Shown here one piece after another: positions 9,483-26,447 of a DNA stretch of 64,000 nt. Position 1 is the first letter of the stretch. The number at the start of each line of letters is the position of its first letter. A program made the position numbers and the translations under genes. Source of the stretch: a plasmid; the sequence record CP071152.1. One strand, written 5' to 3'. Under the pieces are notes generated by a model. The model did no database searches, was not told the DNA's origin, and was given only the letters and a program-made list of their open reading frames with translations.

Positions 9483-9966
9483 CTATGAGTGCAAGGTTGG
9501 AGTTTGAGATTATCGAAAACGAAGGCAGGTTTGTGTTTCCTGCGGCAGCTGAGCAACCCTACCGATCGCTGCTCGATTCATTGGTGAGTGAGTCCACCAC
9601 GGACAACGAGTTCGTCTGGTCTCTCCAAGCACTGCACCGGGAAGAGCCGCAAAACCTTGGCGTGATCGCCTCTCTGGCCGCGCACTACGCTTCCGACGAG
9701 CCGGAGACTGCCCTGGAGTACGCCGAGAAGGGTCTGGCCCTCGCCGCTGCCCTCAACCCACCGACTTCACAGGCACCATGGACTGGAGGGAGGAATCCAA
9801 CCACACCTACTTCGCGCTGCTGCACAGCGCCATAGTGGCCAACATGTTCATGGGGGACAACGACGAGGCATGGCGGCTGATCAATCACTCGTTCACCCTC
9901 AACCCGCGCGATCACCTAAGCGTGCGCTTGTTTCGCGACCAGTTGCCCGCGTATGTCGCTCATTGA
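9483..9966 (+). pseudogene. hypothetical gene with apparent frameshift near 9775
   Basis: ORF 9407..9835 and ORF 9778..9966 are contiguous in different frames. Both have ordinary protein-like composition. Confidence 0.3.
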
Positions 9967-10110: not shown

Positions 10111-11361
10111 TCATCCGTTCGGCTCGCAATGCTCACACCACCAACCTCGAACCCCCTTCCCCTTGTCACCACCGCAGTGCGGACAATCGTTACTGCGGTC
10201 ACGCGGGGGATCGGGGTCTTCTGCCCAATCGGTCCAGTGCCTACTGGCATAGCGAGCCTGCCCATACTGATAACGGCTGGTGGCAACCGACGCGGGCTTG
10301 GGACTACGCGACTGCACGCAGAGCTCGCGGTAGCAGAAACCCTGTTCATCGAGGCCGCTGTTGTTGGGGGGAAGCCGACAGTAGCGGCAGTATCCCAAGG
10401 ACATTGATCCCTGTGGTTGGGGCGTGACAGTGGGTGCGGCGTCCGGCGGCGGCGCTCTATCCATGATAGATTGTTCGCGCTCTTCACGCAGCAGGGCCTC
10501 TTCCTTCATGCGCTGGAGTTCTACTGGATCCCGCGCCCGCCGTTCACGTTCCAGTCGCTCTTGCTTCTGCTTCTTTCGCCAAGCCCAAATCCGATCTTGT
10601 TTAGCGCGTTCTTCCCGCTGCCGCGCCTCCAACTCCTGTTGCCACTGTGCCTGACGCTCAGCTTGACGCTCTGCCTCCTGCTGCTCACGGGCCAGCTTCT
10701 CGGCCTGCCACTGAGCCAATTTGTGCTGATCGTGGGGATGATATATCCAGGAAAGGCAACTGCTTTGCTGCGACAGGAGGGTGAACACCCAGGAGATGGT
10801 ATCCATGCCTTCCGGGCGCTCATCGGAGTTGAGGTGCCACGCGAACTCGGCGTAATCCACGGCCAGCACACCACAGCCGGGGTGCTGGGCGACGAACTGA
10901 TCTAGCCAGTGTGGGGTCAGGGGATCCTCCACTGCCGGGAAGTGCAGGGCAAGATGATGTTTTGGACTATTCACCACCTGGAAGAGACCGGCTGCGGTAC
11001 CTTGGCTGGTGGCTTGAGGAACATGGCGGACAATGATACCCGAGCGTCGTTCTGAAACCTGCCTGCGCTCGTTGCCAAACGGGAGGGTGCGGGATGGCGT
11101 GCTGATGGAGGTCAGGGTATCGAGCCGGGAGAGCAGCATCAGCCGGACGCTGGTCTCGAAGGCCAGCTTACAATCCTTGCCGCTATCATCGTGATGAGCA
11201 AAATAGTGAGTTCTCTTCTCCCCCTTCCTCGCAACCAGAAGGGCATTGCAGCTCGGGCAGCGACATCCACAACGGAGTCCGCGATCGACTTCATCTACCG
11301 AGACAATGGCCCCTGTGCTTACCTGGATGGCGAAGGGGATTTTTACACCTGAATCGAACAT
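10111..11361 (-). CDS. CoiA-like (competence protein CoiA family) putative nuclease with charged coiled coil and C-terminal zinc ribbons
   Basis: N-terminus ...GLRCGCRCPSCNALLVARKGEKRTHYFAHH matches the CoiA-family C-x2-C...HFAH signature. An ER/K/Q-rich helix runs from about aa 215-290. Zinc ribbons CRYCR...C and CPHCGG...CEHCEP follow. Confidence 0.55.
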   Translation of the reverse strand: MFDSGVKIPFAIQVSTGAIVSVDEVDRGLRCGCRCPSCNALLVARKGEKRTHYFAHHDDSGKDCKLAFETSVRLMLLSRLDTLTSISTPSRTLPFGNERRQVSERRSGIIVRHVPQATSQGTAAGLFQVVNSPKHHLALHFPAVEDPLTPHWLDQFVAQHPGCGVLAVDYAEFAWHLNSDERPEGMDTISWVFTLLSQQSSCLSWIYHPHDQHKLAQWQAEKLAREQQEAERQAERQAQWQQELEARQREERAKQDRIWAWRKKQKQERLERERRARDPVELQRMKEEALLREEREQSIMDRAPPPDAAPTVTPQPQGSMSLGYCRYCRLPPNNSGLDEQGFCYRELCVQSRSPKPASVATSRYQYGQARYASRHWTDWAEDPDPPRDRSNDCPHCGGDKGKGVRGWWCEHCEPNG

Positions 11362-12551: not shown

Positions 12552-13367
12552 TCAAATAAGCGGTAGAGACACCTCACCTACCTCGACAAGCGATCCGTTC
12601 TCCCACGGTATGACGGCCACCTGCCGGTCTTTGACTATCTGGATGTAGCCGCCTTGAATTTTGTCGATGTCACGGGCTGAGAAACCGACCAGCGATATAT
12701 AGGGGGAGCCGCCTCTCAGGAACTTCTTTACCTTTGCATATTCGTCCTTTCCCGTGGCGATGAAATAGATGTGCTCGCCTTCGGTCACCATGTCAGGGGA
12801 GTCAGGGTTTTGCGTGTATTTGCACACGAGGTCGATGTCACCCACATCAGGAGCAGTGGTGATGAGGCTGCCGTAGAGCCACACATCCTGAACCCAGACG
12901 TATGGCTCGCAGGCATTCCACTCCTCCACCCGCTCAAGGAACTCTTCGAGCTTTTGCACTGCCTTGGCCCGAGGCAATCGCTTGATGAGCTTGTGGCGAC
13001 TCAGCTCAGCGCCTTTGGCTGTTACCTGATACCAAGCAAAGCCATTGTGATCGGTTATTCCCATCACTGTGAGATAACCCTCATCAAGCATTTTCTGGAT
13101 GAGGTCGGGCGCGAGGGCAACCGCATTGGGATTCAGTTCGGTCAGGGAATACCCCATACCGCATCGCTGCTTCTCCTTGGTCAACACTATCTCGCCAATG
13201 GAGCGAACCTCCGTGACATAGTTTATGTCGTCGGTAGGGTACATCTGAGCGTAGTGGCGCAACCGCTTCACCAGATCGCGACCTGTCTTGAGGTCGAGCC
13301 CGAAAATTTTGCTCTTGGGGTCAATCGTCAGTCCCATGATCTCACCTGCTGTGGGATGAAAAGTCAT
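12552..13367 (-). CDS. nucleotidyltransferase-fold (pol-beta superfamily) protein with N-terminal extension
   Basis: RBS gggggaa before ATG MTFHPTAGE. Minimal NTase motif LYGSLITTAPDVGDIDLV (GS...DxD) sits in the C-terminal half. Confidence 0.45.
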   Translation of the reverse strand: MTFHPTAGEIMGLTIDPKSKIFGLDLKTGRDLVKRLRHYAQMYPTDDINYVTEVRSIGEIVLTKEKQRCGMGYSLTELNPNAVALAPDLIQKMLDEGYLTVMGITDHNGFAWYQVTAKGAELSRHKLIKRLPRAKAVQKLEEFLERVEEWNACEPYVWVQDVWLYGSLITTAPDVGDIDLVCKYTQNPDSPDMVTEGEHIYFIATGKDEYAKVKKFLRGGSPYISLVGFSARDIDKIQGGYIQIVKDRQVAVIPWENGSLVEVGEVSLPLI

Positions 13368-13717
13368 AAAGTTATTCCCCCCAACTAGGGATACATCGTA
13401 GAGGCTTCCAAGTTGTAATTTCCATTGAATGCCCCTCTTTCCGGGGCTTTTCTTGACCTTAATCATCGAGAAGCTACTCCATAATTAAACATTTCATGTA
13501 GGGACAATGTGACGATAGATTGTAGTGTAAGCAGGGCAAGCAGCTGGCTTTCCATGAAAGCTGAGTAGCTTGAGCAGAGGGGGCAAAATGCTGATGTTCG
13601 AGGAAGCTGAACTACACCGACGGTGTGCATTCTCGTCCAATAGACTACTGATGTGGCTTGCCACCTTTTTAAAGTTGTGACCACTTGATTACGTTACTTG
13701 GGGAGATAGGTGATGGA

Positions 13718-15118
13718 ATGTTCGTAACTGTCAAAGCCCGTGTTTATACCGATGTCACGGGTGCCTACACTGAGCTCCCCGCCTTGCTGACGCCGGCGGG
13801 AGTGCTGGAGTCGTTGCTTGACTACTGCCTCTATCGCAGCCACGACCGCAGTCTCACCTGGATGTCGAAGGTGAGCCGCTCTGTGCGGATGTTTCTTGAA
13901 TATCTCCAGACCAACCCTGCCGAGCGTGATACCTACCACCTGTTCCAGAATTTCGCTCAGCGGCTCTACTCCGGCACCTTCGACCGTGAGATAGGGCTCG
14001 ACCCCAGCGGGCTCTGCTGGGCGCCGCGGTCGCCGCAGGACGCCTCACACATCATCACCCACCTATCCGACTTCTTCGACTGGTTGGGCGAAATGCGTCC
14101 CGCATCGGCACAGGTCAATCCGCGCTACGCCGGTGGAGCTTTCGACCGGCAAACCGATGAAGCTGCCTACCAGTATCGGCGCAGCAAAGCGTTCTTAGGA
14201 CATACCTGGGCGGCCAATGCGTCACCGAGCCAGACCAGGCATCGAATTAGAGGGCGGCGTCTGCCTAAGGTTGAACGCGGCGAGCCGCCAGCCTTTCCGG
14301 AGGCGCGTTTCGAGGAGCTCCTGGTTAAGGGATTCTGTGCTGCCGGACGCCAGGATTATCGGGGCATGCTTATCACCTTGTTATTGCACGGAGCTGGCTT
14401 CCGAGAGTCGGAGCCTTTCCACCTGTACATTCAGGATGTGTTGCCTGACCCTGCCAACCCAAATCAGGCCCTGGTTCGCATCCACCATCCAAGTCATGGT
14501 GCTGCGCCAGCTGATTGGCGTGACGCGCAAGGACGCCCCCGCAAGGGCAATCGGGCGGAGTACCTCTCCCAGCAGTTTGGTCTGGCCCCTCGCACAGATC
14601 TTCTAGACCGTCGTCATGCTGGCTGGAAAGGCGGCATGCATGATGGGGCCTATTACAAGCAGGCGTACTGGCTCCTGCCGGAGTATGGCGAGTGGTTTCT
14701 ACAGCTGTGGCACCGCTATCTGGAGCAGGTGGCTCGCAGTGAACGCGGCCATCCCTTTGCTTTCATCAATCTCGTCCGCGAGCCTGTCGGTGCCATGTGC
14801 ACACTCAACCAGTACAACAAGGCCCATGCAGCTGCCTGCGAACGTATCGGCCTCACGGTGAGCAAAGCTCTGGGTACAACGCCGCATGGCCACCGCCACG
14901 CCTACGGTCGCCGACTCATGAACGCCGGTATCGACAAGGCTCTTATCCGTCGCTTTATGCATCACGCCTCCCTGGATAGTCAGGAGGTCTACACGCAAGC
15001 GAATAGCCGCGAGGCCTTGGCTGCATTGGATGTGGCTGCGCAGCGGCTACGAGGCGCGAAGGTGGGAGCTGCCGCTACGCCGAGCCTGTTGCCCGCGGAC
15101 ATCTTATTGAATGACTGA
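13718..15118 (+). CDS. tyrosine recombinase, GmtY-like (first of a recombinase trio)
   Basis: C-terminal HGHRHAYGRRL...IRRFMHHASLDSQEVYTQ gives the H-x-x-R...H...Y catalytic pattern of tyrosine recombinases. Confidence 0.65.
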   Translation: MFVTVKARVYTDVTGAYTELPALLTPAGVLESLLDYCLYRSHDRSLTWMSKVSRSVRMFLEYLQTNPAERDTYHLFQNFAQRLYSGTFDREIGLDPSGLCWAPRSPQDASHIITHLSDFFDWLGEMRPASAQVNPRYAGGAFDRQTDEAAYQYRRSKAFLGHTWAANASPSQTRHRIRGRRLPKVERGEPPAFPEARFEELLVKGFCAAGRQDYRGMLITLLLHGAGFRESEPFHLYIQDVLPDPANPNQALVRIHHPSHGAAPADWRDAQGRPRKGNRAEYLSQQFGLAPRTDLLDRRHAGWKGGMHDGAYYKQAYWLLPEYGEWFLQLWHRYLEQVARSERGHPFAFINLVREPVGAMCTLNQYNKAHAAACERIGLTVSKALGTTPHGHRHAYGRRLMNAGIDKALIRRFMHHASLDSQEVYTQANSREALAALDVAAQRLRGAKVGAAATPSLLPADILLND

Positions 15119-15127
15119 GGATTTGCC

Positions 15128-17725
15128 ATGCCCAATAAGAAGAAAACAACTGCGGCCAGTGTATCTACGCGCCCTGTAACAAGGAAACCAGGGGTAAAGC
15201 GCGTCACGGACACATCCCTCGGCTGGGTTTCACGGGAATATCCGCAGCTCGAACCCTGGCGCATCCTTGCGATGGAGTGGCTAAAAGGGGAAACTCGCGG
15301 GGTCAGTTCGAGACTGCAAGCTCTATCGTCCTTTTTCGAGCGCTACCTTATCCAGCAGAGCCTACCGCTTGACCCGGCAGTGCTGCTGACGCGCGGCACG
15401 GTTCTGCCGGACTATTACCAGACCGCCTGCCCAGATTCGAGGGCTGGCATCACGTACAACAACTGCATCAACTCCTTCCTGCACTTTGTGCTGCTACGTG
15501 AGTTCAGTGTGCCCGGTGATGACGGTCAGCCGGTCATTTCGCAGGCCTTCCGGAACCCAGTGCTCTGGATGTCTAAGGGCGGCTTGCCTTGGCGCGACGA
15601 GAGCGTGCATTCGCCACTACCCTACGGCTACATTGATGAACTGCGCCAGATGTTGGCGGCGGGACCACACTTCCGGGACTGGTTGTGGGCACAAAACGCA
15701 TTGGGTGCAGAAATTGGTCAGCGGGGACCCGGCGCTCCTGACTGGTTCGAGGTAACCGAAGCGCAGATTGACCGGAACGACCCGGATTGCGTCTGGCGTG
15801 AACGCCCAATGCGGAACGGGGCGCGCCTGGAAATGTGGAGCCCGGTGCGCTGGGTCGCACTACTGGTGAAGCTCATACTGCCACTGCGTACTTCTCAGGT
15901 CCGCATGCTCGACTCAGGCGAGGCGGATACCTGGCGCTACGCAGACGGCGTGTGGGCATTGAACCCAAGCCGAATCGCACACGGTAGTGAGCGGCGCCCA
16001 CTACACCAGGGGGTGTTTCGCCGTAGCGCCGCTCTGGCTGATGGCGAGGCGGTTTCGACTGTGCTCTACATCAACACTAACAAGACCGCCGATATCACCA
16101 AGTCAGGCCCCGAGAAAGGCTATGTCCTACCTTGGTCCTCCGGCGGCCCGGCGCATCAGGATGTGTTCTACTGGCTGGAAAAACAGCGTAACTGGCAGGA
16201 AAAATACAATCCGGTATCGCGGCGTACATCTTGGTCTTCACTGGATGGACGCCACATCCAGGCGAAGAGCGAGGTGCAACTCGCAAGCTATCCGGATACT
16301 TGCTTCCTGTTCCGATCGCCGGAAGCCCGTGAGGGTGAACGTTATTTCCCACTTTCGGATAAAGTAATGTTCTCCAGTTGGTTTGCCCTGCTGGAAGCAC
16401 TGGAATGGCGGCTAGCTGACCGAGGTGAGACTCATCGCAATGGCACGAAAATCCGCTTCCTTCCACCGCAAGAAGAGCGGCTCAGCTATCAAAGAACTCT
16501 CTTCCCCTTACACAGTCTGCGCGTCTCCCTCGTCACCGCGCTGGCCCTAGAAGGCCAAGTGCCGTTCCCTATCCTACAAAAGCTCGTCGGACACAGCCGC
16601 CTATTGATGACGCTGTACTACACCAAGCCCGGTGCAACACACATCCGCGACGTATTGCTCGGCGCTGCGGAACGGTTGGAGGCGGCCAAGGAAGAGGGCA
16701 TTCAGACCTTCCTGCTAGACACCGAGTATGGGGTGCTCCTCGAACAGGCTATTTGTAACAGTGTGCCATCTCTGGCTGCCGCTATTCCGCAACATCCCGC
16801 TGCACGTAACCCCGTGGGCTGGATGCCGATGCACCACGGTCTGTGCCTGGTCGGTGGCAACACCAGCGAAGGGGGAGACAATGGAGCTGTGGGCGGCTGC
16901 TACAACGGGGGCGCAATTATTATCAAGAGCACGACAAATGTTAACGCCAAATACGGGCCTGTCCCTGGCGGCAGTCGCAACTGTGTACGCTGTCGTTGGT
17001 TCGTAACTGCTCCGCAGCACCTACCAGCCTTGGCGGCCCACTTCAACACGCTGGCCTACCACTTCGACGAGACGCGCAACGCCTGCCTTGCCCGAGAAAA
17101 CGACCTCCAGGCCCTGAAAAAGGACAGGGCTGAAGCAGAAGCGGCTGGCCAGTCATTCACCCGGCTAGATGCTGTCAGGCAAGCAGAGCGGCTTTGGGAG
17201 AGCACCATGAGGCGCTTTAGTGATTCGGCGGAAGACCTGGTTGCCTGCTGGCGGCTCATCGAGCGCTGCAAGGCTCTACTCGAATCGCGCACTGGCGACA
17301 GCACGCAATTGGTGGCGGCTGGCACGTTATGCGATGTGCAGGCCGTCTTCGAGGAAACCGAGTCGGAGCTTCTGCAACTGGCTGGTGTCTGTGAGAGCGT
17401 CGAACTCTATCCAGACCTAGAGCCAGGCAAGGCGGTGTTTCGACGCAGCCAGTTGCTGGATACCGTCCTCTACCGCGACAAGTTGCCTCCTGTGTTCATG
17501 CTGCTGAGCGAACAGGAACAACTCCTCGCTGGTAACGCCTTTATGCGCCACCTAGCGCAGCAGATGAACCCGTCGAATCCGGCGATCGGCCAACGTGAAG
17601 TTATTCGTCTGATGGATGCCGGTGAGCGTCTCAGTGCATACCTAGATCTCAACCTTGCAGCGCAGTTGCCTACATCCCGTCACACCGCCGCGTTCCGGTC
17701 CGGGCCGACCCTGAAATGGAATTAA
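15128..17725 (+). CDS. large tyrosine-recombinase-domain protein, GmtZ-like
   Basis: 865 aa. ...LHSLRVSLVTALALEG...LVGHSRLLMTLYYTK (HxLR...GH...Y). RBS tgagga. It sits 9 nt after the first recombinase. Confidence 0.6.
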   Translation: MPNKKKTTAASVSTRPVTRKPGVKRVTDTSLGWVSREYPQLEPWRILAMEWLKGETRGVSSRLQALSSFFERYLIQQSLPLDPAVLLTRGTVLPDYYQTACPDSRAGITYNNCINSFLHFVLLREFSVPGDDGQPVISQAFRNPVLWMSKGGLPWRDESVHSPLPYGYIDELRQMLAAGPHFRDWLWAQNALGAEIGQRGPGAPDWFEVTEAQIDRNDPDCVWRERPMRNGARLEMWSPVRWVALLVKLILPLRTSQVRMLDSGEADTWRYADGVWALNPSRIAHGSERRPLHQGVFRRSAALADGEAVSTVLYINTNKTADITKSGPEKGYVLPWSSGGPAHQDVFYWLEKQRNWQEKYNPVSRRTSWSSLDGRHIQAKSEVQLASYPDTCFLFRSPEAREGERYFPLSDKVMFSSWFALLEALEWRLADRGETHRNGTKIRFLPPQEERLSYQRTLFPLHSLRVSLVTALALEGQVPFPILQKLVGHSRLLMTLYYTKPGATHIRDVLLGAAERLEAAKEEGIQTFLLDTEYGVLLEQAICNSVPSLAAAIPQHPAARNPVGWMPMHHGLCLVGGNTSEGGDNGAVGGCYNGGAIIIKSTTNVNAKYGPVPGGSRNCVRCRWFVTAPQHLPALAAHFNTLAYHFDETRNACLARENDLQALKKDRAEAEAAGQSFTRLDAVRQAERLWESTMRRFSDSAEDLVACWRLIERCKALLESRTGDSTQLVAAGTLCDVQAVFEETESELLQLAGVCESVELYPDLEPGKAVFRRSQLLDTVLYRDKLPPVFMLLSEQEQLLAGNAFMRHLAQQMNPSNPAIGQREVIRLMDAGERLSAYLDLNLAAQLPTSRHTAAFRSGPTLKWN

Positions 17726-17727
17726 TC

Positions 17728-18387
17728 ATGAGTAAAACAACAGATATTCACCCTGACGTCGTGTTGGAGTCGCTGCTTGCCAAGGCTGAGCGCTCGAACC
17801 GTCGAAACAACCTCATCAAGATGCATGAACTGTGTCGCAAGCAGCACGAGGTTGGGTCGCGTGACTTCTCCGTGTCAACCATCGGCCGTCTGGCTGAGGC
17901 CGATGGCATCATGAAAGGCCGTGCGCTCTACAACACCCAATCCGCCGACTACAAGGCTCTCATAGAGGTCTGGGCTGCTTACGCAGGTCCACCTGCCCCC
18001 AAGCCCACCAAGACGCTGGCCAGCCACGACTACCTGATGCGCATCGATGATCCGGCCATTCGTTCTATCATGCAGGCCATCGTCACAGAGCGTGACAAAC
18101 TCAAGGCGCAGCTCAACACCCTCAAGGCACACACACTGGTGAACGTGGACCGGCGGCCGTTAGGGGCAACTGTCACGTCCGCGACTGGCACGCCGGTGGT
18201 TGTGCTTAAATTGTCCGCACAACTGACTCCATCTGAACGCGAGGCACTACAGAAAGCGGTGTCAGCAGACTACCTCGAAGATCGGGGTTTGAAGGAAGGC
18301 AGCCACGGTGAAATCGTTAACGAGCGCGGTCGCACAATATTCGAGGTTGGCTTTGCTTGGGCAATTCGCAAGGTGTTGGGTGACTGA
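17728..18387 (+). CDS. small third protein of the recombinase trio (GmtX-like)
   Basis: ATG overlaps the upstream stop (TAATCATG). About 220 aa with no recognisable catalytic motif. Its size and position fit GMT or Tn554 TnpC-like accessory proteins. Confidence 0.45.
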   Translation: MSKTTDIHPDVVLESLLAKAERSNRRNNLIKMHELCRKQHEVGSRDFSVSTIGRLAEADGIMKGRALYNTQSADYKALIEVWAAYAGPPAPKPTKTLASHDYLMRIDDPAIRSIMQAIVTERDKLKAQLNTLKAHTLVNVDRRPLGATVTSATGTPVVVLKLSAQLTPSEREALQKAVSADYLEDRGLKEGSHGEIVNERGRTIFEVGFAWAIRKVLGD

Positions 18388-18735
18388 CCCTTTGTGGGAG
18401 AGCAATAGATAATCATATTGAGAATTAAAGTACCATACTAAAATGGCAGTGCTCTCATCGGTACGCTGCCTTTTCTAAAACGTTCATACCCCAAAACCAT
18501 TCAGAGAAAATACTCATTCATTACCTGTTAGTGTGACTTTACCTTATAAAAGGTGATCTGAAAGTGTGTAGTGGGTTTCTGTCGTATTAGATGGTTTGAC
18601 TGCATTCTAATTCATGGGCTTTTGATTCAAGTGATGGAATAATTGTAAATTGCAAGCATATGAAATATGGCGCATCATGTGTGTGGAAGGTTACTCTGCG
18701 CCGTATAGGTAGGCATACAAAACTGGAGAGTGCTA

Positions 18736-19785
18736 ATGCTTGTAAAGTATTATGGTTTGGTTTTCGTTCATAGAACCAATCGTTGGTCACCAAGAGTAGA
18801 ATTTATATCAAACGGTTTATTTCGCATGACTCAGCCTAAATACCTTAATGATAAAGGGAGCGAGGCGAGACTATGGCCATATTTTAATGAGTTTTCACCT
18901 GCAGATTATGCATGGGCCAAAAAAGAACATGATAAAATGCAAACCGATCCTTCCTATGTCCCATCAAATGAAGAATTAGAAAACTTCTTTCTAAAACCGT
19001 GTGGCTCGCGCTATGGAGACCATTTCCCGCATATGCTAGATCAAGAAGGCTTCAACTCAATGGAAGATTATGATCGGGAGCAATTGACTCAAGCGGCTGA
19101 AAGAGTCAACTCATTTTTAGTGGAGGCATTAAGCTGCCAGTTAGGCATTTTATCTCTTTCAAAGTCTGACACAAATGAACTTATGTGGACATATTATGCT
19201 AGCGAAGGTAAGGGACTAGCTGTTACTTTCAATGAGAATCATGCATTTTTCAACCAGCTTCCCCCGAAAGATGTTAGTTATACTCCAGATAAAAGAGCTT
19301 CTCTTACATATTATAAAGGTATGATACGAATAAATGGTGCTCCGATAAAAAGCTTCCATGCTGCAGATTTAGGTAATCCATTAGGAGTTATGCGCTCTCT
19401 TAGTAGCAATGGTATTGATATAGTTGATTTTTCGGATCGACTGCTATATTCGAAAGCCAAACAATGGTCTTTTGAAGATGAGACTAGAATTGTATGCCCC
19501 CTTATGTTATGTGAAGAGAAAGTAGGGCCACTAGTACAACCAGACTTTGGAGTTGAATTACCTAATGAACTCTCCCCAATGTTCAAGAGCTACTCTGAGG
19601 TCAATCTAAAACGAATACCATTCGAGGCATTTGAGTCTATCATTTTTGGTTACAGTATGAGTGAATTAGACAAGTCTACTATCACTGAACTGGTAAGGAA
19701 AAATGAAAACTTGTCCCATATAAAGTTACGCATAGCCAAACACAATATTTATGGCAACATTGAGATCAATGATCTCGTTGTGTAA
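18736..19785 (+). CDS. DUF2971-like protein (defence-island associated family)
   Basis: RBS ggagag before the ATG. LVKYYGL...ISNGLFRMTQPKYLNDKGSE and ILSLSKSDTNELMWTYYASEGKGLAVTF match my recollection of DUF2971 conserved blocks. The region is strongly AT-rich. Confidence 0.5.
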   Translation: MLVKYYGLVFVHRTNRWSPRVEFISNGLFRMTQPKYLNDKGSEARLWPYFNEFSPADYAWAKKEHDKMQTDPSYVPSNEELENFFLKPCGSRYGDHFPHMLDQEGFNSMEDYDREQLTQAAERVNSFLVEALSCQLGILSLSKSDTNELMWTYYASEGKGLAVTFNENHAFFNQLPPKDVSYTPDKRASLTYYKGMIRINGAPIKSFHAADLGNPLGVMRSLSSNGIDIVDFSDRLLYSKAKQWSFEDETRIVCPLMLCEEKVGPLVQPDFGVELPNELSPMFKSYSEVNLKRIPFEAFESIIFGYSMSELDKSTITELVRKNENLSHIKLRIAKHNIYGNIEINDLVV

Positions 19786-19827
19786 GATGCTACTTTATTA
19801 GCAGAAATTTATCATATTTGAGGTGCT

Positions 19828-20835
19828 ATGTTTTATATTTTCCTTGATACCTGTGTTCTTTTAGATATTTCAACAAAAAAATATGACCTTCCTTTGGTTT
19901 CTGCACTGGAAGAGTTGGTTGCATCGGGTGTGATTACACTTATACTTACCGACCTAGTTGTGGAAGAGTACGAGAGGAATAAGGAAGACGTAGCAAACAA
20001 GACTGCCAAAAGGTTGTCTCAAGAATTTAAACAAGTAAAAGTAATAGTAAGTGAATTTGCAGGCGATAAAAAAGCGGACACAATAGACGTATTAAATGAC
20101 ATCAATGCGCGTTTACCCCTGCTAACTGATGCCAACTATGCGACCATTCACAGAGTTGAAAGGCTTATCGAATCAGCAAAAAAAATCAGTATTAGTGAAC
20201 GTTCTAAAATAGCCGCAGTTCAGCGGGGCCTAGATAAAAGAGCGCCATTTCACATTAGTAAAAACTCTGTAGCTGATGCGGTCATCATCGAACAATTTTA
20301 TGAGTTCTCGCAGGGTGTCGATAGTGAGTCTGGTTGTTGTTTTTTCATAACCCACAATCACAATGACTTTTCTGCAAAGGATCACCGTCAACCACATTCT
20401 GATTTTGGTAATATTTTTAACGACACGAGTGTTCTTTATTTCAATAATCTAGCATCAGCAATTAATGAAATTGACGAGAATTTTTTAGATGGTATTGAAT
20501 TTGAGTATGACCACACAGAGGAAACCAGAGGCCTAAGAGAAATCCTAGATGCGATGGACGAACTAGTTGACAAAGTTTGGTATAACAGGCACCAGAATCG
20601 CATGTGGGCTATTGAAAATGGCGAGATCGAAATTGTTCCTGAGGGTACTGAACGTTATGGTAATAATGTCATTCACGAGAATATCCTTAAAGGTGCTATG
20701 AAGTCTGCAAAACGTGTTGAAGACACCTATGACAACGTAGGGCCTTGGAGCGACTTTGAGTGGGGTATGATTAATGGAAAATTGTCTGCATTACGTTGGG
20801 TGCTAGGTGATGAATGGGATATGTTAGACACCTAA
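19828..20835 (+). CDS. PIN-like nuclease-domain protein with long C-terminal extension
   Basis: RBS gaggtg before the ATG. N-terminus MFYIFLDTCVLLDI is a PIN-type start (vlDTnvli). The ORF is 42 nt downstream of the DUF2971-like gene on the same strand. Confidence 0.5.
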   Translation: MFYIFLDTCVLLDISTKKYDLPLVSALEELVASGVITLILTDLVVEEYERNKEDVANKTAKRLSQEFKQVKVIVSEFAGDKKADTIDVLNDINARLPLLTDANYATIHRVERLIESAKKISISERSKIAAVQRGLDKRAPFHISKNSVADAVIIEQFYEFSQGVDSESGCCFFITHNHNDFSAKDHRQPHSDFGNIFNDTSVLYFNNLASAINEIDENFLDGIEFEYDHTEETRGLREILDAMDELVDKVWYNRHQNRMWAIENGEIEIVPEGTERYGNNVIHENILKGAMKSAKRVEDTYDNVGPWSDFEWGMINGKLSALRWVLGDEWDMLDT

Positions 20836-21464
20836 GATATACTGGATCAATAACTAACTAAGGCTTCAATATACATTTTCTCATCTGAGGGTAGCGCGCT
20901 AGATCTTTAGATCTAACGCATTTCTATCCAAAATCGAGTTATGCTGAGTATGATAATTTATTCCTCTCCCCCCACTCTGTGGAGCTTACGAAGATCAGAC
21001 TGTAATGCAATTGCTGGATTAGAAGCTGATCACTCCCAGATTGGCAACACCACCCTACAGGCCTATCAGAAAAATTTCGCGTTCCTAGAAGGTCTTCCTC
21101 TGACCGACCCGCAACGAGTGTGTTTATTGGGCGTGCGGGCCGACACACGCCAAAAGTTCAGGGATAATCGGTAACGCAGCGCCAGAACCACTCATCTGTC
21201 AGCCAATTAAACCTTAATAGAGCGCAGGTCAAGTATCGGAGAGCTTATCTTGGAAGACCTGCTGCAGGTTATCCGCGAAGAGGCAGGCTTTTACTCGTTT
21301 GGTCAGTAGCTAAAAACCGGGCTTGGCTTTGTAAGGTGACAGAATAACCATCGCTGCGATCACATTCGTAGCAAACACCAAACGGTAAGCTCATCTGATC
21401 GTGACGAAGAACCATTGCATAATTATTTTTTCGAGTTGGACCTTGACAAGGAAAGTAGAAAAAG

Positions 21465-24062
21465 ATGTCTGAACCAGCGAATGAAACAGCCGGAATGAAT
21501 GATTTTGAAATGTGGTTGAACGACCGTAATGGTTGGCTTCAGACCGCAGCCAGACAACTCATCGACAACAAGAGGTTACCGAATGGGGGCGAGCTTGCAG
21601 AGCTGGTTCGACTTTGCAAACTGGAGGCCATCAAGCAGAGTGACCCTGGATTTCTGAAGGTGGCCCCAGGAGCATTATCTGCTGGCGCGGTACGACGGGT
21701 TGTGCGGGTCGAAGAAGTAACCCAAGTCTTCGGGGTTAACGCGATTAAGCATGGAGCATCTCTACCATTCGGAACGGGCAGTCTGACGGTCATCTACGGG
21801 CAAAATGGTTCGGGGAAAAGTGGTTTTGCTCGTCTGCTCAAACAGCTGTGTGGATCTCGTTCACGGGACGAAATCCACCCCAACGTATTCAACGATAAAG
21901 AGCATGCTTGCAGTGCTCAATGCCGAATCACTATTGATGGCAATTCCCGAGATATCAATTGGCATCCTGGTGCAGAGCCCCATGCGATGCTCAAGTACGC
22001 CCAAGTATTTGATTCGAAGGCAGCAACTCAGTACATGGGGCGCACTGAGTCAAGCTATGAGCCGAGCAGCATGCGGTTCATCTCCATGCTCATTCAAATT
22101 TCGGGCATGGTTTCTGATGAGCTGGGGCGGGAGAAGGGAAAGCTCGTTAGGGCACTTCCACAGTTCCCGGGTGATCTCTCAGAAACCGCTGAGAAAGCCT
22201 GGTTCTCCTCTCTCAAAGCCTCCGTTTCTGCTGAGCAGGTCGAGGCGTATTGCCGGTATGGGAAAGATTTGGACGACGAGCGGGTCAAGGCTGAGGCTCT
22301 GCTTGCGGAAAAAGACATCGCGGGTCGCTTGGTTACCATTGGCAAGGAAAATGTTGCCACTGAAAGCATCAAGCAGGCAATGAAACTGTTGAAAGAAGGT
22401 CTAACCGACGAGAAGGCTGATGAGTTGTCGAAGGCGAGAGTGTCGGCGGTTGCAGCGAGAAAGGCGGCCAACGAAGTTGCACAGCAGGCATTCGCGAATG
22501 TTCCTCTCCAAGGCGTGGGTGATACGGCCTGGAAACTTATGTGGGAGCAGGCGCGCGCCTATTCCGTTGCTCATGCATACCATGGTCACGAATTTCCCGT
22601 TACTTCAGACGGTGCGCACTGCGTGCTCTGTCAGCAAGAACTTACGGCTGAGGGCGCCACTCGGCTCAAAAGCTTCGAGGCTTTCGTCACCGCAGGTCTC
22701 GAGACTGCGGCGAAAACTGCGGAGGCCATCAGTTCGGCACTGATCGCGAAGGTAATTCAGGTGCCTTCGATTGAAGACTGGATTGCGCGCCTGGCTCAGT
22801 TGCAGTTCGACGAAGCCACGGCCCGTGCTTGGTATGAGTCGTTGAAGTCTAGGCGAGCACAGTTTGTGGCGTGCGCTGCCGTGGGAGATATCTCTGCGTT
22901 CGATTGGGTTCCTATCGATCAGGCACTGGAAAAACGAGCTGCCGACTTGCTTGCTGAGAAGACCAGCCTCGCCCAGCTGCAGCAAGATGGGCAGCGGCTG
23001 CAGGTCGAGAAGCGAGTGAAGCAACTCAAAGCACTTCAGTGGCTGTCCCAGAACAAACCTGCGATTCTCGCAGAGCGTGAGCGGCTAGTAGCTGTCGATC
23101 TTCTGGATAAAGCTACTAAGTTAACGGCCACCAATTCGTTGACAACCAAGCGCAACGAGCTTGGACGTACCGAGCTTGATGCTGGATATCAGGCCCGCTT
23201 TGATGCGGAGTTGAAGTCCCTTGGTGGACGGCGGTTGCCAGTTGTGCCGCAGAGCAGGGCTCAAGGAAAGGGAGTTATCACATTTGGGCTCGCCCTTGTC
23301 GGTGCTCGGGCTGGCTTCACTCCTGATGTCGTACTCAGTGAAGGCGAAACCCGCATTGTTGCACTGGCGGCATTCCTGGCCGACACAACTGGTTCGAACC
23401 AGCTTGCCCCCTTCATCTTTGACGACCCGATTTCGTCTTTAGATCAGGATTTCGAGGAGAGGGTTGTTACCCGGCTTGTCGAGTTGGCGAAGACCCGGCA
23501 GGTCATCATCTTCACTCACCGCCTCTCGTTGATTGCACTCGTTGAGGCTGTAATCAAAAAACACGGTGAGAATCCGGCTAACGAGAAAATTACCTACACC
23601 GTGCAGTCGCTTCGACGGCTGGATAAGGTTTCGGGAATTCTGGCGCAACACAGTCTGCGGGATGCCAAGCCCGATAAGGCACTTAATGCGGTTAGAGATC
23701 ACGTCATCCCGAGGCTCAAAAAACATCAGGCCGATGCCGACGCCGACGGTTATGACCTCACCGTGAAGAGCGCCTGCAGTGATTTCCGGATCATCTTGGA
23801 ACGAACAGTGGAGCTCATCCTCTTGAATGACGTAGTTATTCGTTTCAGACGGGACGTCATGACTAAAGGAAAGCTGAGAGGTGTTGCCAAGGTGATGGCA
23901 GAGGACTGCGATTTTATCGACCGGTTAATGACCAAGTATTCAGTCTATGAGCACTCGCAGGCAGATGAGCTACCTCAGGTTCCGGTCGAACTCGATGAGT
24001 TCGAGCGAGATGTATTGGAACTCATTGCATGGATGGCTCAATTCAAGGAGCGATCAAGCTAG
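21465..24062 (+). CDS. RloC/PrrC-like ABC ATPase with CxxC zinc hook and C-terminal nuclease-like domain
   Basis: Walker A GQNGSGKSG, then a long coiled coil containing HCVLCQQE (CxxC). ABC signature-like LSEGETRIVALAAFLAD, Walker B FIFDDPISSLD, H-loop IIFTHR, then about 170 aa more. Confidence 0.5.
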   Translation: MSEPANETAGMNDFEMWLNDRNGWLQTAARQLIDNKRLPNGGELAELVRLCKLEAIKQSDPGFLKVAPGALSAGAVRRVVRVEEVTQVFGVNAIKHGASLPFGTGSLTVIYGQNGSGKSGFARLLKQLCGSRSRDEIHPNVFNDKEHACSAQCRITIDGNSRDINWHPGAEPHAMLKYAQVFDSKAATQYMGRTESSYEPSSMRFISMLIQISGMVSDELGREKGKLVRALPQFPGDLSETAEKAWFSSLKASVSAEQVEAYCRYGKDLDDERVKAEALLAEKDIAGRLVTIGKENVATESIKQAMKLLKEGLTDEKADELSKARVSAVAARKAANEVAQQAFANVPLQGVGDTAWKLMWEQARAYSVAHAYHGHEFPVTSDGAHCVLCQQELTAEGATRLKSFEAFVTAGLETAAKTAEAISSALIAKVIQVPSIEDWIARLAQLQFDEATARAWYESLKSRRAQFVACAAVGDISAFDWVPIDQALEKRAADLLAEKTSLAQLQQDGQRLQVEKRVKQLKALQWLSQNKPAILAERERLVAVDLLDKATKLTATNSLTTKRNELGRTELDAGYQARFDAELKSLGGRRLPVVPQSRAQGKGVITFGLALVGARAGFTPDVVLSEGETRIVALAAFLADTTGSNQLAPFIFDDPISSLDQDFEERVVTRLVELAKTRQVIIFTHRLSLIALVEAVIKKHGENPANEKITYTVQSLRRLDKVSGILAQHSLRDAKPDKALNAVRDHVIPRLKKHQADADADGYDLTVKSACSDFRIILERTVELILLNDVVIRFRRDVMTKGKLRGVAKVMAEDCDFIDRLMTKYSVYEHSQADELPQVPVELDEFERDVLELIAWMAQFKERSS

Positions 24063-24186
24063 ACGGAGTGATTTTGCTCAAGCAAAGGGGCCAGCGGCGT
24101 TTTTCAAGATAGTTGTCGCGCAAAGCTGTTTTAAGCAGCCTCTTTTTGCTCCGGCTCGGGTTTCTCGGGCCGCTCCGGATTTAGCA

Positions 24187-25399
24187 TCACGGCACCGATA
24201 GGTGTCCAGTCTCGCGTCTTGCCACTCCACCTCGCTGGGTGTTGTGCTCGGGCGGCCTGGTACACAGCATCCCGTTTCGCCAGCAGGGCTTTATCGTCAC
24301 CCGATGCCGCTCGTTGGGTGTGACGAAGCGGATACGGCTATGCCGGTGCTCTTCGTTATACCAGGCCATAAAGTCGCGCACCCACTCCCTGGCCGCTTCC
24401 AGACTGGCAAAGCCGTCTGATGGCCACTGCGGACAGTACTTCAGCGTCCTGAACAATGACTCCGAGTACGGATTATCGTTGCTGACCCGAGGCCGTCCCC
24501 CGCGAGGGCGTGACACCCAGGTCATGCATCTTGGTCAGCAGCGTGACTGACTTCATTGGCGCGCCGTTGTCCGAGTGCAAGACCAGCGGCTGCTTCCAGC
24601 ACTGCTCGCGGATGATGCTCCGTTGCAGCAACGCCGCCGCCCGTTCACCGCACTCTTGCTCATGCACTTCCCAGCCCACCCCTTTGCGGCTGTAGATGTC
24701 CTCTATCAGATAGAGGTAGTAATACTGGCCGCGCACGAGTGACGGCAAGTAGGTGATATCCCAGGACCACACTTGATTGGGCCCAGTCGCGGTATGGCTG
24801 GTTGGTACCGGCACATGACGCGGTGGCTGGCTCCGGCCACGCCTGTGCTGCTGGTCAGCCGCCCGCAAGATGCGATAGAAGCTCGACTCACTGGCCAAGT
24901 AGCGCCCCTGGTCGGCCAGCCGTGGCACAATTTGACTCGGCGGCAACGAGGCGAACTCCTGGCTATTGCAGACGTCCAGCACGGCCTGCCGCTCCTCTGG
25001 GCTCAATGCATGAGCAGGTATGGAACGAACCGCATCCGGTCGCCTATCGGCACTCAGCTCAGGGCCGGCCAACCAGCGCTGGAGCGTGCGCAGACTCAGC
25101 CCCAACACCTCGGCCGCAGGATGCTTGCGGGCGCCAGCTTCAAGCGCTTCGCGCCACCATGCAACGTATTGCTGCCGCTCTGGCAACGAGGTCAGTTGTC
25201 CTCGTCGACGTTGCTCCAGTAGGCATCGAGCTTTTTTTGCAATATCAGCAGAGCTGCCGCCTCGGCCAGGGCCTTGTCTTTGCGCCGCAGCTCTTGCTCC
25301 AGTTGCCGGATACGCTTCTTGTCCGCTTTGGCCTGTGCCTTCTCCGCCTGTTGTAAGGTACGAGCGGATTGCTGGCCCAGAATACAGGCTTGGCGCCAT
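24187..25399 (-). pseudogene. IS3-family transposase OrfB, DDE domain split by a frameshift
   Basis: WSWDITYL and HSDNG lie in ORF 24473..25399. NDNPYSESLFRTLK lies in ORF 24187..24525, in another frame. Confidence 0.6.
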
Positions 25400-25692
25400 T
25401 GCTGGACTTGCTCGGGATAGAGACCCTTACGGCGGCAGTACTCACTGAGTTCAATCTCGGAAAGCGCAGCGGTTTCCAGCACGACGGCGAACTTGGCCTC
25501 GGCGGGCCATTCATCGGTCAGTTTGTTGTCCCCGGGCACAGGAGACCCTCCGTCTTTGGCGTGTTTGCGCCAATTATACAGAGTGACCTCGCTGATGTTT
25601 TCCTGCCGAGCCAACTCGGCCACCGACATATTGATGGGCGGCAGCAGCTTCTTGAGCAAAGCAGCCTTGCGCTCACTTGAATAACGAGCCAT
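25192..25692 (-). CDS. IS3-family transposase OrfA (HTH/leucine zipper)
   Basis: MARYSSERKAALLKKLL...ELARQENISEVTLYNWRKH is typical IS3 OrfA. Confidence 0.7.
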   Translation of the reverse strand: MARYSSERKAALLKKLLPPINMSVAELARQENISEVTLYNWRKHAKDGGSPVPGDNKLTDEWPAEAKFAVVLETAALSEIELSEYCRRKGLYPEQVQQWRQACILGQQSARTLQQAEKAQAKADKKRIRQLEQELRRKDKALAEAAALLILQKKLDAYWSNVDEDN

Positions 25693-26447
25693 TCGACACT
25701 CTTTATCCGCCCCCGGTCTTCACATTTAGATTATTCAGATTAGGCGACAACTATTCTGACACCGGGGGCCAGTGATAACTAGATCTATATATGCGATACG
25801 GGCCGAGAAAAGCGCCGACAATGCCGTCGGCGCCTGAAAGTTATGATGTATTAAAATGCATTTTTACATATACAGATAAAGCGTAGGAAACTCTTTGGTA
25901 GCAAGTCTTCTGGCTGACATATCTCCTAACTATGCTCAATTAGGGTATAAGTTTCATCCTTGCAAATAAAGTGTCATCCCAACGGGATGAAAGCATTGAA
26001 TTTGCTGGGCTGTAGCCGTTCTTACTGCTCAAATCACTACCCAGCTCAGGGTTCCACTGGCCAGTTCGAGCCACCCCGGTGTACTTGGCGCTTGGCCACC
26101 CCGGTTTACCTGTTGAGAGACATCTCAAATGCCGCGGTCAAAGTCCCCGAGGGAGATCCAGACGCCATGCCGGGAGTTTCAGCACCGTCGGTTGACCTGG
26201 CCAGCACCGGTTTTGGGGATGAGTTCCGGGGTTGAGCAGCTGGTTGATTTCCACCAAGGACATCGGTGCTCGAGAGCGGACATAAGTACCCAGGTCAGCC
26301 TGCTGGCCACATCCCGGTACCAACCTACTCACGGAATTTGGCCTCTGTCGCAAATTCATCAAGAGGGCCCCTCTACTCATTGCGTGGCAGTGGGCAACGC
26401 GGGTACACATGAGTCGCCCACCACTGCGACCTACCAAGGACTGCGCT

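What the first reader, a model, noticed from the sequence alone, without database searches (positions are those of the whole stretch)
18388..20835. AT-rich two-gene cargo: DUF2971-like protein + PIN-like protein (candidate undescribed defence pair)
Two co-oriented genes (351 and 335 aa, 42-nt spacer, both with good RBS) sit in a sharply AT-rich block directly 3' of the recombinase trio. The first has blocks I recognise as DUF2971-like (LNDxxE; SxxxxxLMWxxYAxxxKGxxxxF), a family enriched in defence islands with no assigned mechanism. The second opens with a PIN-type motif (FLDTCVLLD) and continues with about 200 aa of unknown function. The architecture (unknown sensor-like protein + PIN nuclease, horizontally acquired composition, mobile-element cargo position) is typical of abortive-infection or defence modules. 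I do not recognise this pairing as a named system.
Basis: partly seen in the sequence, partly recalled or inferred. Interest (0 to 1): 0.8.

Follow-up and report, generated by a model that had tools for sequence, protein, structure and literature searches.

The report
Two stand-alone defence genes joined
The AT-rich block is a real, mobile 2.5-kb cassette on an Aeromonas plasmid that carries two genes from families with proven single-gene anti-phage members (a DarT-like ADP-ribosyltransferase-fold protein and a VapC-like PIN nuclease), and the two almost always occur apart elsewhere, so it is most likely two independent defence genes side by side rather than a new two-gene system.

Summary
Two co-oriented genes lie 42 nt apart (A 18736-19785, 349 aa; B 19828-20835, 335 aa) in a 37-40% GC block directly after GmtY/Z/X, on an Aeromonas plasmid GMT island that is already catalogued.

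The pair moves as a ~2.5-kb cassette in at least five contexts, but only where A is about 86-88% identical. B is absent from 21 of 22 other A loci, and A from 56 of 57 informative B loci. Neither gene has another recurrent partner. Even within the cassette their histories differ: dS for A is 0.36 against Shewanella, while dS for B is saturated.

Best reading: two autonomous defence modules that became physically joined and are probably co-transcribed. It is a new member of known kinds and of modest interest. No phenotype has been tested.

The parts
18490..20930 (+). Core of the mobile AT-rich two-gene cassette: leader, A, spacer, B and a short tail. The shared ends vary between 18404/18475/18490 on the left and 20888/20930/20965 on the right, depending on the comparison.
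   Evidence: blastn gives 81-90% nt identity to L040/L042 (metagenome), L043 (Vibrio cyclitrophicus plasmid) and L001 (Shewanella sp. HN-41), each with unrelated flanks. The unit coincides with the low-GC block.
18490..18735 (+). Conserved ~245-nt leader / presumed promoter region of gene A, including the motif CATTCAGAGAAAATACTCATTCA at 18498-18520.
   Evidence: Alignment A3 shows it conserved in all paired loci, and the motif also upstream of the A-only Photobacterium locus L003. There is no Rfam match. Promoter-like hexamers are not above chance, so the promoter role is inferred.
18736..19785 (+). Gene A: 349-aa DUF2971 / PDC-S31-type protein with an ADP-ribosyltransferase fold. Candidate catalytic residues are given in 351-aa ORF numbering (subtract 2 for the 349-aa protein): R32, S142-L-S144, Y156, E249-D-E251.
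19786..19827 (+). 42-nt A-B spacer carrying B's ribosome-binding site (GAGG).
   Evidence: The sequence is. The spacer is conserved in the paired loci and is 42 nt in every paired locus measured, including L001. No terminator-like hairpin lies between the genes.
19828..20835 (+). Gene B: 335-aa DUF4935/PIN_12 protein. It has an N-terminal VapC-like PIN nuclease (residues ~1-215, with a long helical insert at 42-116) and a conserved helical C-terminal region (~230-335) of unknown role. PIN residues: D7, E47, D150, T175-x-N177-x-x-D180-F181.
20896..20919 (.). Short palindrome GCGCTAGATCTTTAGATCTAACGC downstream of B (GTTAGAT...ATCTAAC in L043). It may be a remnant of an attC-like site or a transcript-end hairpin.
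   Evidence: DNA folding (sequences 6 and 7). Homology with L043 ends just after it. It is not followed by a T run. Its role is unproven.
13685..18387 (+). Context: GmtY (13685-15118), GmtZ (15128-17725) and GmtX (17716-18387), the gamma-mobile-trio that defines the island carrying the cassette.
   Evidence: NCBIfam equivalogs: NF040693 525 bits (cut-off 340), NF047926 981 bits (cut-off 600), NF040692 235 bits (cut-off 40). The island is listed as entry 188 in the GMT paper's dataset.
21465..24062 (+). Context: the neighbouring cargo gene, an 865-aa AAA_13/SMC-like ATPase that matches the PADLOC single-gene candidate PDC-S06. It is a separate module.
   Evidence: PADLOC PDLC04893, 1117.7 bits, full length. 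Pfam AAA_13/SMC_N. The same gene occurs alone at 94.7% nt identity on a P. aeruginosa plasmid.

Best explanation
The block is a compact (~2.5 kb) horizontally mobile cassette. It joins two autonomous single-gene anti-phage modules of the abortive-infection type, here carried as cargo of a GMT island on an Aeromonas plasmid.

Gene A is an ADP-ribosyltransferase-fold enzyme of the DUF2971/PDC-S31 family. On phage infection it probably uses NAD+ to ADP-ribosylate a nucleic acid (DarT/Tpt1-like) or an essential protein, which would stop replication.

Gene B is a VapC-like, Mg2+-dependent PIN endoribonuclease of the DUF4935/PIN_12 family. Its conserved helical C-terminal half probably keeps it inactive until it senses infection, after which it would cleave RNA.

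The two genes are probably co-transcribed from A's conserved leader. That would explain their linkage without any functional dependence, because B elsewhere travels as a promoterless, integron-cassette-like unit.

Shown: the genes, the folds, the conserved catalytic-type residues, family membership, the mobility of the cassette, and the separability of the two genes across genomes. Taken from the literature: anti-phage activity of family members. Inferred: the triggers, the targets, co-transcription, and any activity of these particular proteins.
For: Families and folds:
- A: Pfam DUF2971 and PADLOC PDC-S31.
- A: invariant R32, S142, Y156 and E249-x-E251, positioned on or next to the predicted core strands.
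- B: invariant D7, E47, D150 and a TxNxxDF motif.

Literature:
- Aristaios (DUF2971, ART fold) and Cosus/Brc24 (PIN_12, with loss-of-function point mutants) each protect as a single gene.
- DUF2971 is predicted to be DarT-like.
- DUF4935 genes are usually monocistronic.

Separability:
- Only 1 of 19 species-level A loci has B within 10 kb. A broader B HMM gives the same result.
- A stands alone at the end of a P2-like prophage in Serratia, in a Klebsiella chromosomal islet, in a P1-like phage-plasmid, and between housekeeping genes.
- Only 1 of 57 informative metagenomic B loci has A.
- B's neighbours are heterogeneous, 102 of 131 being singletons. They are defence, TA or mobile genes: SieB, AbiJ/Abi_C, HipA, a pAgo-associated nuclease, an integrase.
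- B-alone units have integron-cassette-like ends.

Different histories inside the cassette:
- Window vs L001: dS for A is 0.36, dS for B is saturated.
- The identity breakpoint lies at the A/B junction.
- Paired B copies are not monophyletic.

Context: GMT islands are rich in defence cargo, and the next gene is another single-gene candidate, PDC-S06.
Against: - The pair does recur as a unit, with a conserved 42-nt spacer and no intervening terminator, in at least five unrelated contexts. The junction has been kept even though the B allele differs. That pattern would also fit selection for keeping the two genes together.
- No phenotype is known for either subfamily.
- B is related to Cosus only at Pfam-profile level (BLASTP E 1.3; hhalign not significant).
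- A could not be compared directly with Aristaios because no sequence was available.
- A's Pfam score is only just above threshold (24.2 against 22), and its PADLOC hits cover only the central motif.
- PDC-S31 and PDC-S06 are candidates, not validated systems.
Confidence: 0.65

Rival explanations
1. One reading: A and B form one obligate two-gene defence system. One protein senses or primes, for example through ADP-ribosylation or NAD+ turnover by A, and the PIN nuclease B executes. Alternatively the two effectors act cooperatively.
For: The genes are co-oriented, 42 nt apart, with a conserved spacer and RBS and no terminator-like site between them. The same ~2.5-kb unit is found in the Aeromonas GMT island, a V. 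cyclitrophicus conjugative plasmid, Shewanella HN-41 and metagenomic contigs with other flanks. The junction is retained even where the B allele is highly divergent.
Against: B is absent from 21 of 22 other A loci, and A from 56 of 57 informative B loci. Close relatives of each gene persist alone: A at 77% identity, and a B copy 84.8% identical to a paired B. Neither gene has an alternative recurrent partner. Validated members of both Pfam families work as single genes. A is an effector-type enzyme fold, not a sensor.
Confidence: 0.17
2. The pair is a toxin-antitoxin / addiction module that stabilises the plasmid or island. One protein (the PIN RNase or the ART) is the toxin and the other neutralises it. 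No anti-phage role is required.
Against: There is no small DNA-binding antitoxin gene. Both proteins are about 340 aa and enzyme-like. Each gene is stably maintained alone in many genomes under purifying selection. That is incompatible with one being the obligatory antidote of the other. DarT antitoxins are macrodomain proteins and VapC antitoxins are VapB proteins, and neither is present here.
Confidence: 0.06
3. A is an offensive ADP-ribosylating toxin, either an antibacterial or host-directed effector of the kind GMT islands also carry. B is unrelated cargo or A's immunity or accessory factor.
For: GMT islands carry antibacterial T6SS effectors as well as defence systems. About 18% of DUF2971 proteins were predicted to be secreted effectors in the Legionella survey.
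Against: Pfam finds no secretion-associated domain in A. A's family is abundant in phages (phrog_1762). It sits in the accessory loci of a P2-like prophage and a P1-like phage-plasmid, which are typical places for defence or exclusion genes. A also has no recurrent adjacent immunity gene.
Confidence: 0.05

Closest known systems
Aristaios (Lactococcus plasmid pUCCL641_199; PMC11381338) and the PADLOC candidate PDC-S31
   Same: All are single proteins of ~300-350 aa carrying Pfam DUF2971 with a predicted ADP-ribosyltransferase fold, on mobile elements. Aristaios works as a single gene with an abortive-infection phenotype. A hits four PDC-S31 models, as do the A-alone homologues in the Serratia prophage and the E. 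coli phage-plasmid.
   Different: Aristaios comes from a Gram-positive host and is 316 aa, and its sequence could not be obtained for a direct comparison. A's subfamily (349 aa; 87 clusters, almost all Gammaproteobacteria and uncultured samples) has not been tested. Here A is fused into a cassette with a second gene. PDC-S31 is only a candidate.
DarT (toxin of DarTG) and Tpt1/KptA NAD+-dependent nucleic-acid-modifying ART-fold enzymes
   Different: There is no DarG-like macrodomain antitoxin next to A. Sequence identity is only 6-17%. A profile search against PDB sequences finds nothing. A has large helical inserts. Its substrate is unknown.
Cosus / Brc24 (PIN_12 integron cassette on pKAZ2; bioRxiv 10.1101/2024.07.02.601719)
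   Same: Both match the full Pfam PIN_12 model (B 101 bits, Cosus 126 bits). Both are ~335-382 aa with an N-terminal PIN domain and an uncharacterised C-terminal half. Cosus is a single-gene cassette, and B relatives also occur as integron-cassette-like single-gene units.
   Different: Pairwise similarity is not significant (BLASTP E 1.3; hhalign probability <1%; a broad B HMM scores Cosus at E 3.3). B therefore belongs to a different subfamily and the C-terminal halves are not alignable. B's subfamily has not been tested.
VapC toxins of VapBC toxin-antitoxin systems
   Different: There is no VapB antitoxin gene. B is 2.5 times longer, with a ~75-residue helical insert and a ~110-residue C-terminal extension.
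GAPS6 (validated two-gene GMT-island system; GAPS6b = TPR + PINc)
   Same: It is GMT-island cargo, has two genes, and one protein carries a PIN-type RNase domain.
   Different: B has no TPR domain and belongs to PIN_12, and the partner here is a DUF2971 protein. The main text of the GMT paper does not mention DUF2971.

Membership tests
Pfam DUF2971 (PF11185) | Score at or above the curated gathering threshold | tested here: met
   24.2 bits against a cut-off of 22, residues 152-254, covering the whole 89-position model. RefSeq also names it a DUF2971 domain-containing protein. The margin is small.
PADLOC PDC-S31 (single-gene defence candidate) | Significant match to the PDC-S31 HMMs with adequate coverage | tested here: inconclusive
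   A matches four PDC-S31 models (best E 7.3e-18, 62.9 bits), but the best stretch covers only ~59 of 273 profile positions. PADLOC's own coverage rule could not be applied.
PADLOC PDC-S31 (single-gene defence candidate) | Occurs as a stand-alone gene | tested here: met
   In 21 of 22 other loci A relatives have no B and no other recurrent partner.
ADP-ribosyltransferase superfamily (DarT/Tpt1-like) | ART core fold | tested here: met
ADP-ribosyltransferase superfamily (DarT/Tpt1-like) | Conserved catalytic glutamate motif (ExE) and NAD-binding motifs I and II | tested here: inconclusive
   E249-D-E251, R32, S142 and Y156 are invariant in 34 sequences down to 34% identity and lie on or next to predicted core strands. 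Their position in an NAD pocket could not be checked because no coordinates were accessible.
ADP-ribosyltransferase superfamily (DarT/Tpt1-like) | NAD+-dependent transferase activity | not testable with these tools
   This needs a biochemical assay.
Aristaios anti-phage system | Sequence homology to pUCCL641_199 beyond the shared Pfam domain | not tested
   No supplementary sequence is held, and tblastn of A against the plasmid collection listed no Lactococcus record.
Pfam PIN_12 / DUF4935 (PF16289) | Score above the gathering threshold over the full model | tested here: met
   101 bits against a cut-off of 32, residues 4-181, model positions 1-172 of 172.
PIN domain nucleases (VapC group) | PIN fold with the conserved acidic metal-binding residues | tested here: met
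Cosus (Brc24) anti-phage system | Recognisable pairwise or profile homology to Brc24 along its length | tested here: not met
   BLASTP E 1.3. hhalign probability 0.17%, E 0.36. The broad B HMM scores Cosus at E 3.3. Only the Pfam family is shared.
VapBC type II toxin-antitoxin | Small adjacent VapB-type antitoxin gene | tested here: not met
   The upstream gene is the 349-aa ART-fold protein, and no small ORF or DNA-binding domain is present. B-alone loci also lack a conserved small neighbour.
GAPS6 (GMT-encoded two-gene system) | Second protein with TPR + PINc domains | tested here: not met
   B has no TPR hit and belongs to PIN_12. No direct sequence comparison was possible.
GMT island cargo | Located between GmtYZX and the island's far end | tested here: met
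   The GmtY/Z/X equivalog hits are above their cut-offs. The island is entry 188 in the GMT dataset. The insertion-site remnant is at window 26302-26325.
Integron gene cassette (for B) | attC site directly 3' of the gene and a GTTRRRY-type junction 5' of it | tested here: inconclusive
   B-alone units L020, L037 and L038 have GTTAAC 37-51 nt upstream and attC-like end-to-end hairpins after the stop codon (z -3.45, -1.64, -1.75). L025 and L052 are weaker. The window cassette keeps only a short palindrome. No integrase or IntegronFinder-type test was run.

The most novel reading that the evidence does not exclude
The A-B cassette is a cooperative two-effector immune unit rather than a chance fusion. 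One possibility is that the ART (A) and the PIN RNase (B) act on the same target pathway. Another is that A's activity (ADP-ribosylated nucleic acid, or a fall in NAD+) switches B on. Selection would then have kept the junction intact across at least five mobile contexts, and even through replacement of the B allele. This would be a previously undescribed ART + PIN_12 system type.
Probability: 0.15. Interest if true: 0.6.

Novelty: new member of a known kind. Interest (0 to 1): 0.3.

Why it matters
If the best reading is right, the finding is mostly confirmatory. It adds untested gammaproteobacterial subfamilies to two recently recognised single-gene defence families (DUF2971/ART-like and PIN_12).

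It also gives a clear example of how defence genes are assembled. A promoter-bearing gene and a promoterless, integron-cassette-like gene were joined into a 2.5-kb unit. That unit then moves between GMT islands, conjugative plasmids and chromosomes, including clinically relevant Aeromonas mcr-5-type plasmids.

B's subfamily is large (thousands of homologues) and highly conserved, so a phenotype and an RNA target for it would be useful. If the minority reading is true (functional cooperation between an ART and a PIN RNase), it would define a new two-effector architecture.

Tried and rejected
- Named GMT systems. The GMT paper's GAPS1, 2, 4 and 6 have different domain content, and its main text does not mention DUF2971. 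Its datasets list the island but do not classify these two proteins.
- Direct homology of B to Cosus. I recovered the exact Cosus protein from pKAZ2, using the error-containing machine-read supplement sequence as a query. BLASTP and hhalign were not significant, so the link is at Pfam-family level only.
- Aristaios sequence. It is not held in the supplements, and tblastn of A against the plasmid collection listed no Lactococcus record.
- Profile search of A against PDB sequences: no hits, even at E 10.
- NCBIfam names for A or B: none. PADLOC hits for B or Cosus: none.
- An alternative conserved partner for B or for A: none found.
- Structured RNA in the leader or the spacer: no Rfam hit.
- Intrinsic terminators between or after the genes: none. 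Promoter-like hexamers are not above chance.
- Terminal inverted or direct repeats bounding the cassette: only short, chance-level matches.
- A full attC site after B in the window cassette: not supported, only a 24-nt palindrome.
- Later literature naming the pair: none found in the library.
Full report
**Observation**

The window holds two co-oriented ORFs at 18730-19785 and 19828-20835. They are separated by 42 nt, and each is preceded by a Shine-Dalgarno-like sequence. GC falls to 0.37-0.42 across 18.5-21.0 kb, against 0.53-0.62 on either side. Homologues and the RefSeq annotation of an identical plasmid start gene A at MLVKYYGL. That corresponds to the ATG at 18736, giving 349 aa. The quoted motifs are present.

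**Where it sits**

The three upstream genes are GmtY, GmtZ and GmtX by NCBIfam equivalog models. The region is therefore a Gamma-Mobile-Trio (GMT) island, a class of mobile element described as rich in defensive and offensive cargo (bioRxiv 10.1101/2023.03.28.534373).

The window is 99.9-100% identical over this region to large Aeromonas plasmids, including pMCR5_045096. That island is entry 188 in the GMT paper's dataset, about 14.8 kb, inserted intergenically. In the window it runs from about 12.4 kb to an insertion-site remnant at 26302-26325. It contains an extra ISAs20 copy at about 24.09-25.78 kb.

The next cargo gene (21465-24062) is a full-length match to the PADLOC single-gene candidate PDC-S06. 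That gene also occurs alone on a Pseudomonas plasmid.

**Gene A**

Pfam places A in DUF2971, just above threshold. PADLOC matches four PDC-S31 models over the central motif. PHROGs gives phrog_1762 at E 1e-51, so the family is common in phages.

I could not compare A with Aristaios directly, and a profile search against PDB sequences found nothing. The ART assignment therefore rests on fold, motifs and Pfam family.

**Gene B**

Matelska et al. classified DUF4935 as VapC-group PIN proteins of about 350 aa with an unassigned C-terminal half, and noted that the genes are usually monocistronic (PMC5499597). Cosus/Brc24, a PIN_12 integron cassette, gives strong single-gene protection against T7, and point mutations in its PIN_12 domain weaken that protection.

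I recovered the exact Cosus protein from plasmid pKAZ2. It matches PIN_12 at 126 bits. It is not detectably similar to B by BLASTP, by hhalign or by a broad B-family HMM. B is therefore a different subfamily within the same Pfam family.

**Is it a pair?**

This is the central test, and it gives a two-sided answer.

On one side, the two genes form a discrete mobile unit. A segment from about 18.40-18.49 kb to about 20.89-20.97 kb is shared at 81-90% nucleotide identity with loci whose flanks are unrelated. The segment is exactly the AT-rich block. It comprises a ~245-nt leader, A, the conserved 42-nt spacer, B and a short tail. The loci that share it are:
- a Vibrio cyclitrophicus conjugative plasmid, next to tra genes;
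- Shewanella sp. HN-41;
- metagenomic contigs with an FRG-domain gene upstream, or with a different recombinase trio downstream.

On the other side, this adjacency is confined to the clade in which A is about 86-88% identical.
- **A without B.** Of 19 species-level genomes encoding an A relative, only the closest one has B within 10 kb. A broader B HMM gives the same answer.
- **Where A stands alone.** A at 77% identity sits alone at the end of a P2-like prophage in Serratia. A at 73% sits in a Klebsiella chromosomal islet. A at 49% sits in the variable region of P1-like IncY phage-plasmids. More distant copies are single-gene inserts beside selO, nrdA or an M16 peptidase.
- **B without A.** Of 80 metagenomic B loci (40-92% identity), 57 have at least 1.2 kb of upstream sequence. 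Only one of those, again the closest at 92%, carries an A-family gene.
- **B's other neighbours.** B at 75-79% identity stands without A in Vreelandella, in Tn7-like cargo, and on Photobacterium and Shewanella plasmids. B's neighbours are heterogeneous, 102 of 131 being singletons. Where they can be identified they are defence, TA or mobility genes: SieB-like, AbiJ/Abi_C, HipA, a pAgo-associated nuclease, an integrase.

**Different histories inside the cassette**

Between the window and the Shewanella copy, A has dS 0.36, like the other paired copies. B's dS is saturated. Sliding-window identity drops from 90-95% in A to 63-79% in B, with the break at the junction. In a B tree the paired copies are not monophyletic: the Shewanella B is 84.8% identical to an unpaired Photobacterium B but only 79.5% identical to the window's B. 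The two genes are therefore exchanged as separate modules, and B persists without A in closely related lineages.

**How the linkage may have arisen**

A brings its own conserved leader, part of which is also found upstream of an A-only locus. B-alone units begin only 37-51 nt upstream of the ATG at a GTTAAC junction. They are followed immediately by sequences that start (G)TTAACAAAGC and end GCGTTAT or GCGTTAGAC. In three loci these fold end-to-end like attC sites. That matches the report that Cosus-type genes are integron cassettes.

Integron cassettes are typically promoterless (general knowledge). Placing B behind A would therefore supply transcription to B. No terminator-like hairpin separates the genes. 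This is an inference. It explains tight linkage without functional dependence. The window cassette retains only a 24-nt palindrome after B (20896-20919).

**Mechanism**

- **Most likely (about 0.65).** These are two autonomous abortive-infection-type effectors, each with its own sensing. A would be an NAD+-dependent ADP-ribosyltransferase acting on nucleic acid or an essential protein. B would be a metal-dependent PIN endoribonuclease gated by its C-terminal domain. The folds, motifs and family links are shown. The triggers, targets and activity are inferred.
- **Main rival (about 0.17).** A and B form a genuinely cooperative or obligate pair. The recurrence of the cassette and the retained junction favour this. 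The separability data and the single-gene precedents argue against it.
- **Minor rivals (about 0.05 each).** A toxin-antitoxin reading is unlikely because each gene is stably maintained alone. An offensive-toxin reading is unlikely because A lacks secretion-associated domains and sits in phage accessory loci.

**Novelty and verdict**

Neither protein carries more than a domain-level name in RefSeq, NCBIfam or PADLOC, and no paper in the library describes this pairing. Both belong to families that already have validated single-gene anti-phage members, and A's family is already a PADLOC candidate.

The finding is best filed as new, untested members of known kinds, joined into a small mobile cassette within a catalogued GMT island. 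The 'sensor + PIN effector, undescribed pair' reading is not supported. Interest is modest (0.3). The residual novel reading, a cooperative ART + PIN_12 system, has a probability of about 0.15.

Noticed in passing
window 21465-24062 (+): An 865-aa AAA_13/SMC-like ATPase matches the PADLOC single-gene candidate PDC-S06 over its full length (1117.7 bits). The same gene occurs alone at 94.7% nt identity on a P. aeruginosa plasmid (NZ_CP061074.2), so it is another separately mobile cargo module.
   Followed up: partly
window ~24091-25776: An ISAs20 (IS3-family) copy is inserted inside the GMT island, downstream of the ATPase gene. The otherwise identical island on pMCR5_045096 lacks it and instead carries an ISAs27 (IS21-family) element between the 304-aa gene and gmtY.
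   Followed up: partly
window 12552-13466 (-): A 304-aa gene lies at the left end of the island. It has only weak hits to DUF6932 (E 0.003) and to the PADLOC candidate PDC-M63A (E 5e-5). Its function is unknown and it may be further cargo.
   Followed up: no
window 18498-18520: The motif CATTCAGAGAAAATACTCATTCA lies ~215 nt upstream of gene A. It is nearly invariant in all paired cassettes and is also found upstream of an A-only homologue in Photobacterium (L003, ~9745-9769). It could be an operator, promoter or leader element. There is no Rfam match.
   Followed up: partly
L020 5950-7060; L037 5964-7110; L038 5953-7115; L025 and L052 similar: Single-gene B units look like integron cassettes. 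GTTAAC lies 37-51 nt upstream of the ATG. Straight after the stop codon comes an attC-like sequence ((G)TTAACAAAGC ... GCGTTAT/GCGTTAGAC) that folds end-to-end as an imperfect hairpin. In L020 the flanking 430-aa and 439-aa genes may be neighbouring cassettes in an array.
   Followed up: partly
window 20896-20919; L043 ~10146-10169: A short palindrome lies after B (GCGCTAGATCTTTAGATCTAACGC; GTTAGAT...ATCTAAC in L043). It resembles paired integron R-box core sites. Homology with the Vibrio plasmid ends just beyond it.
   Followed up: partly
L041 2466-7272 (-): In one metagenomic contig the A-B cassette lies next to a different three-gene set of large recombinase-like proteins (401, 581 and 618 aa, two with Phage_integrase hits). 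It shows no tblastn similarity to GmtYZX and may be another trio-type mobile element carrying the same cargo.
   Followed up: no
L001 10007-12103 versus window 18736-20835: There is a recombination breakpoint at the A/B junction. A is 90-95% identical at the nucleotide level (dS 0.36), while B is 63-79% identical (dS saturated). B alleles are therefore swapped within an otherwise conserved cassette.
   Followed up: yes
L045-L049 7785-9314 (+): In Klebsiella pneumoniae the A homologue (73% identity) is followed, after ~730 nt, by a 509-aa AAA_21/AAA_15/SMC-like ATPase. This suggests a small chromosomal defence islet between housekeeping genes.
   Followed up: no
L130 5001-6041 (E. coli IncY plasmid NZ_AP027855.1) and ~90 similar records: A homologues at 49% identity are carried in the variable region of P1-like phage-plasmids, between a darB-type methylase and ref/cre/c1. 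They are widespread in E. coli, Salmonella and Shigella.
   Followed up: partly
L039 8347-9027 (-) (plasmid pKAZ2): tblastn with GmtX gave a 31% identity match of at least 150 aa under a gene annotated 'Alpha/beta hydrolase fold'. This is unexplained and possibly spurious.
   Followed up: no
window 26302-26325 (-): A one-mismatch copy of the GMT insertion-site sequence given in the GMT paper's dataset (GGTTGGTACCGGGATGTGGCCTGC) marks the right-hand border of the island in this window.
   Followed up: partly
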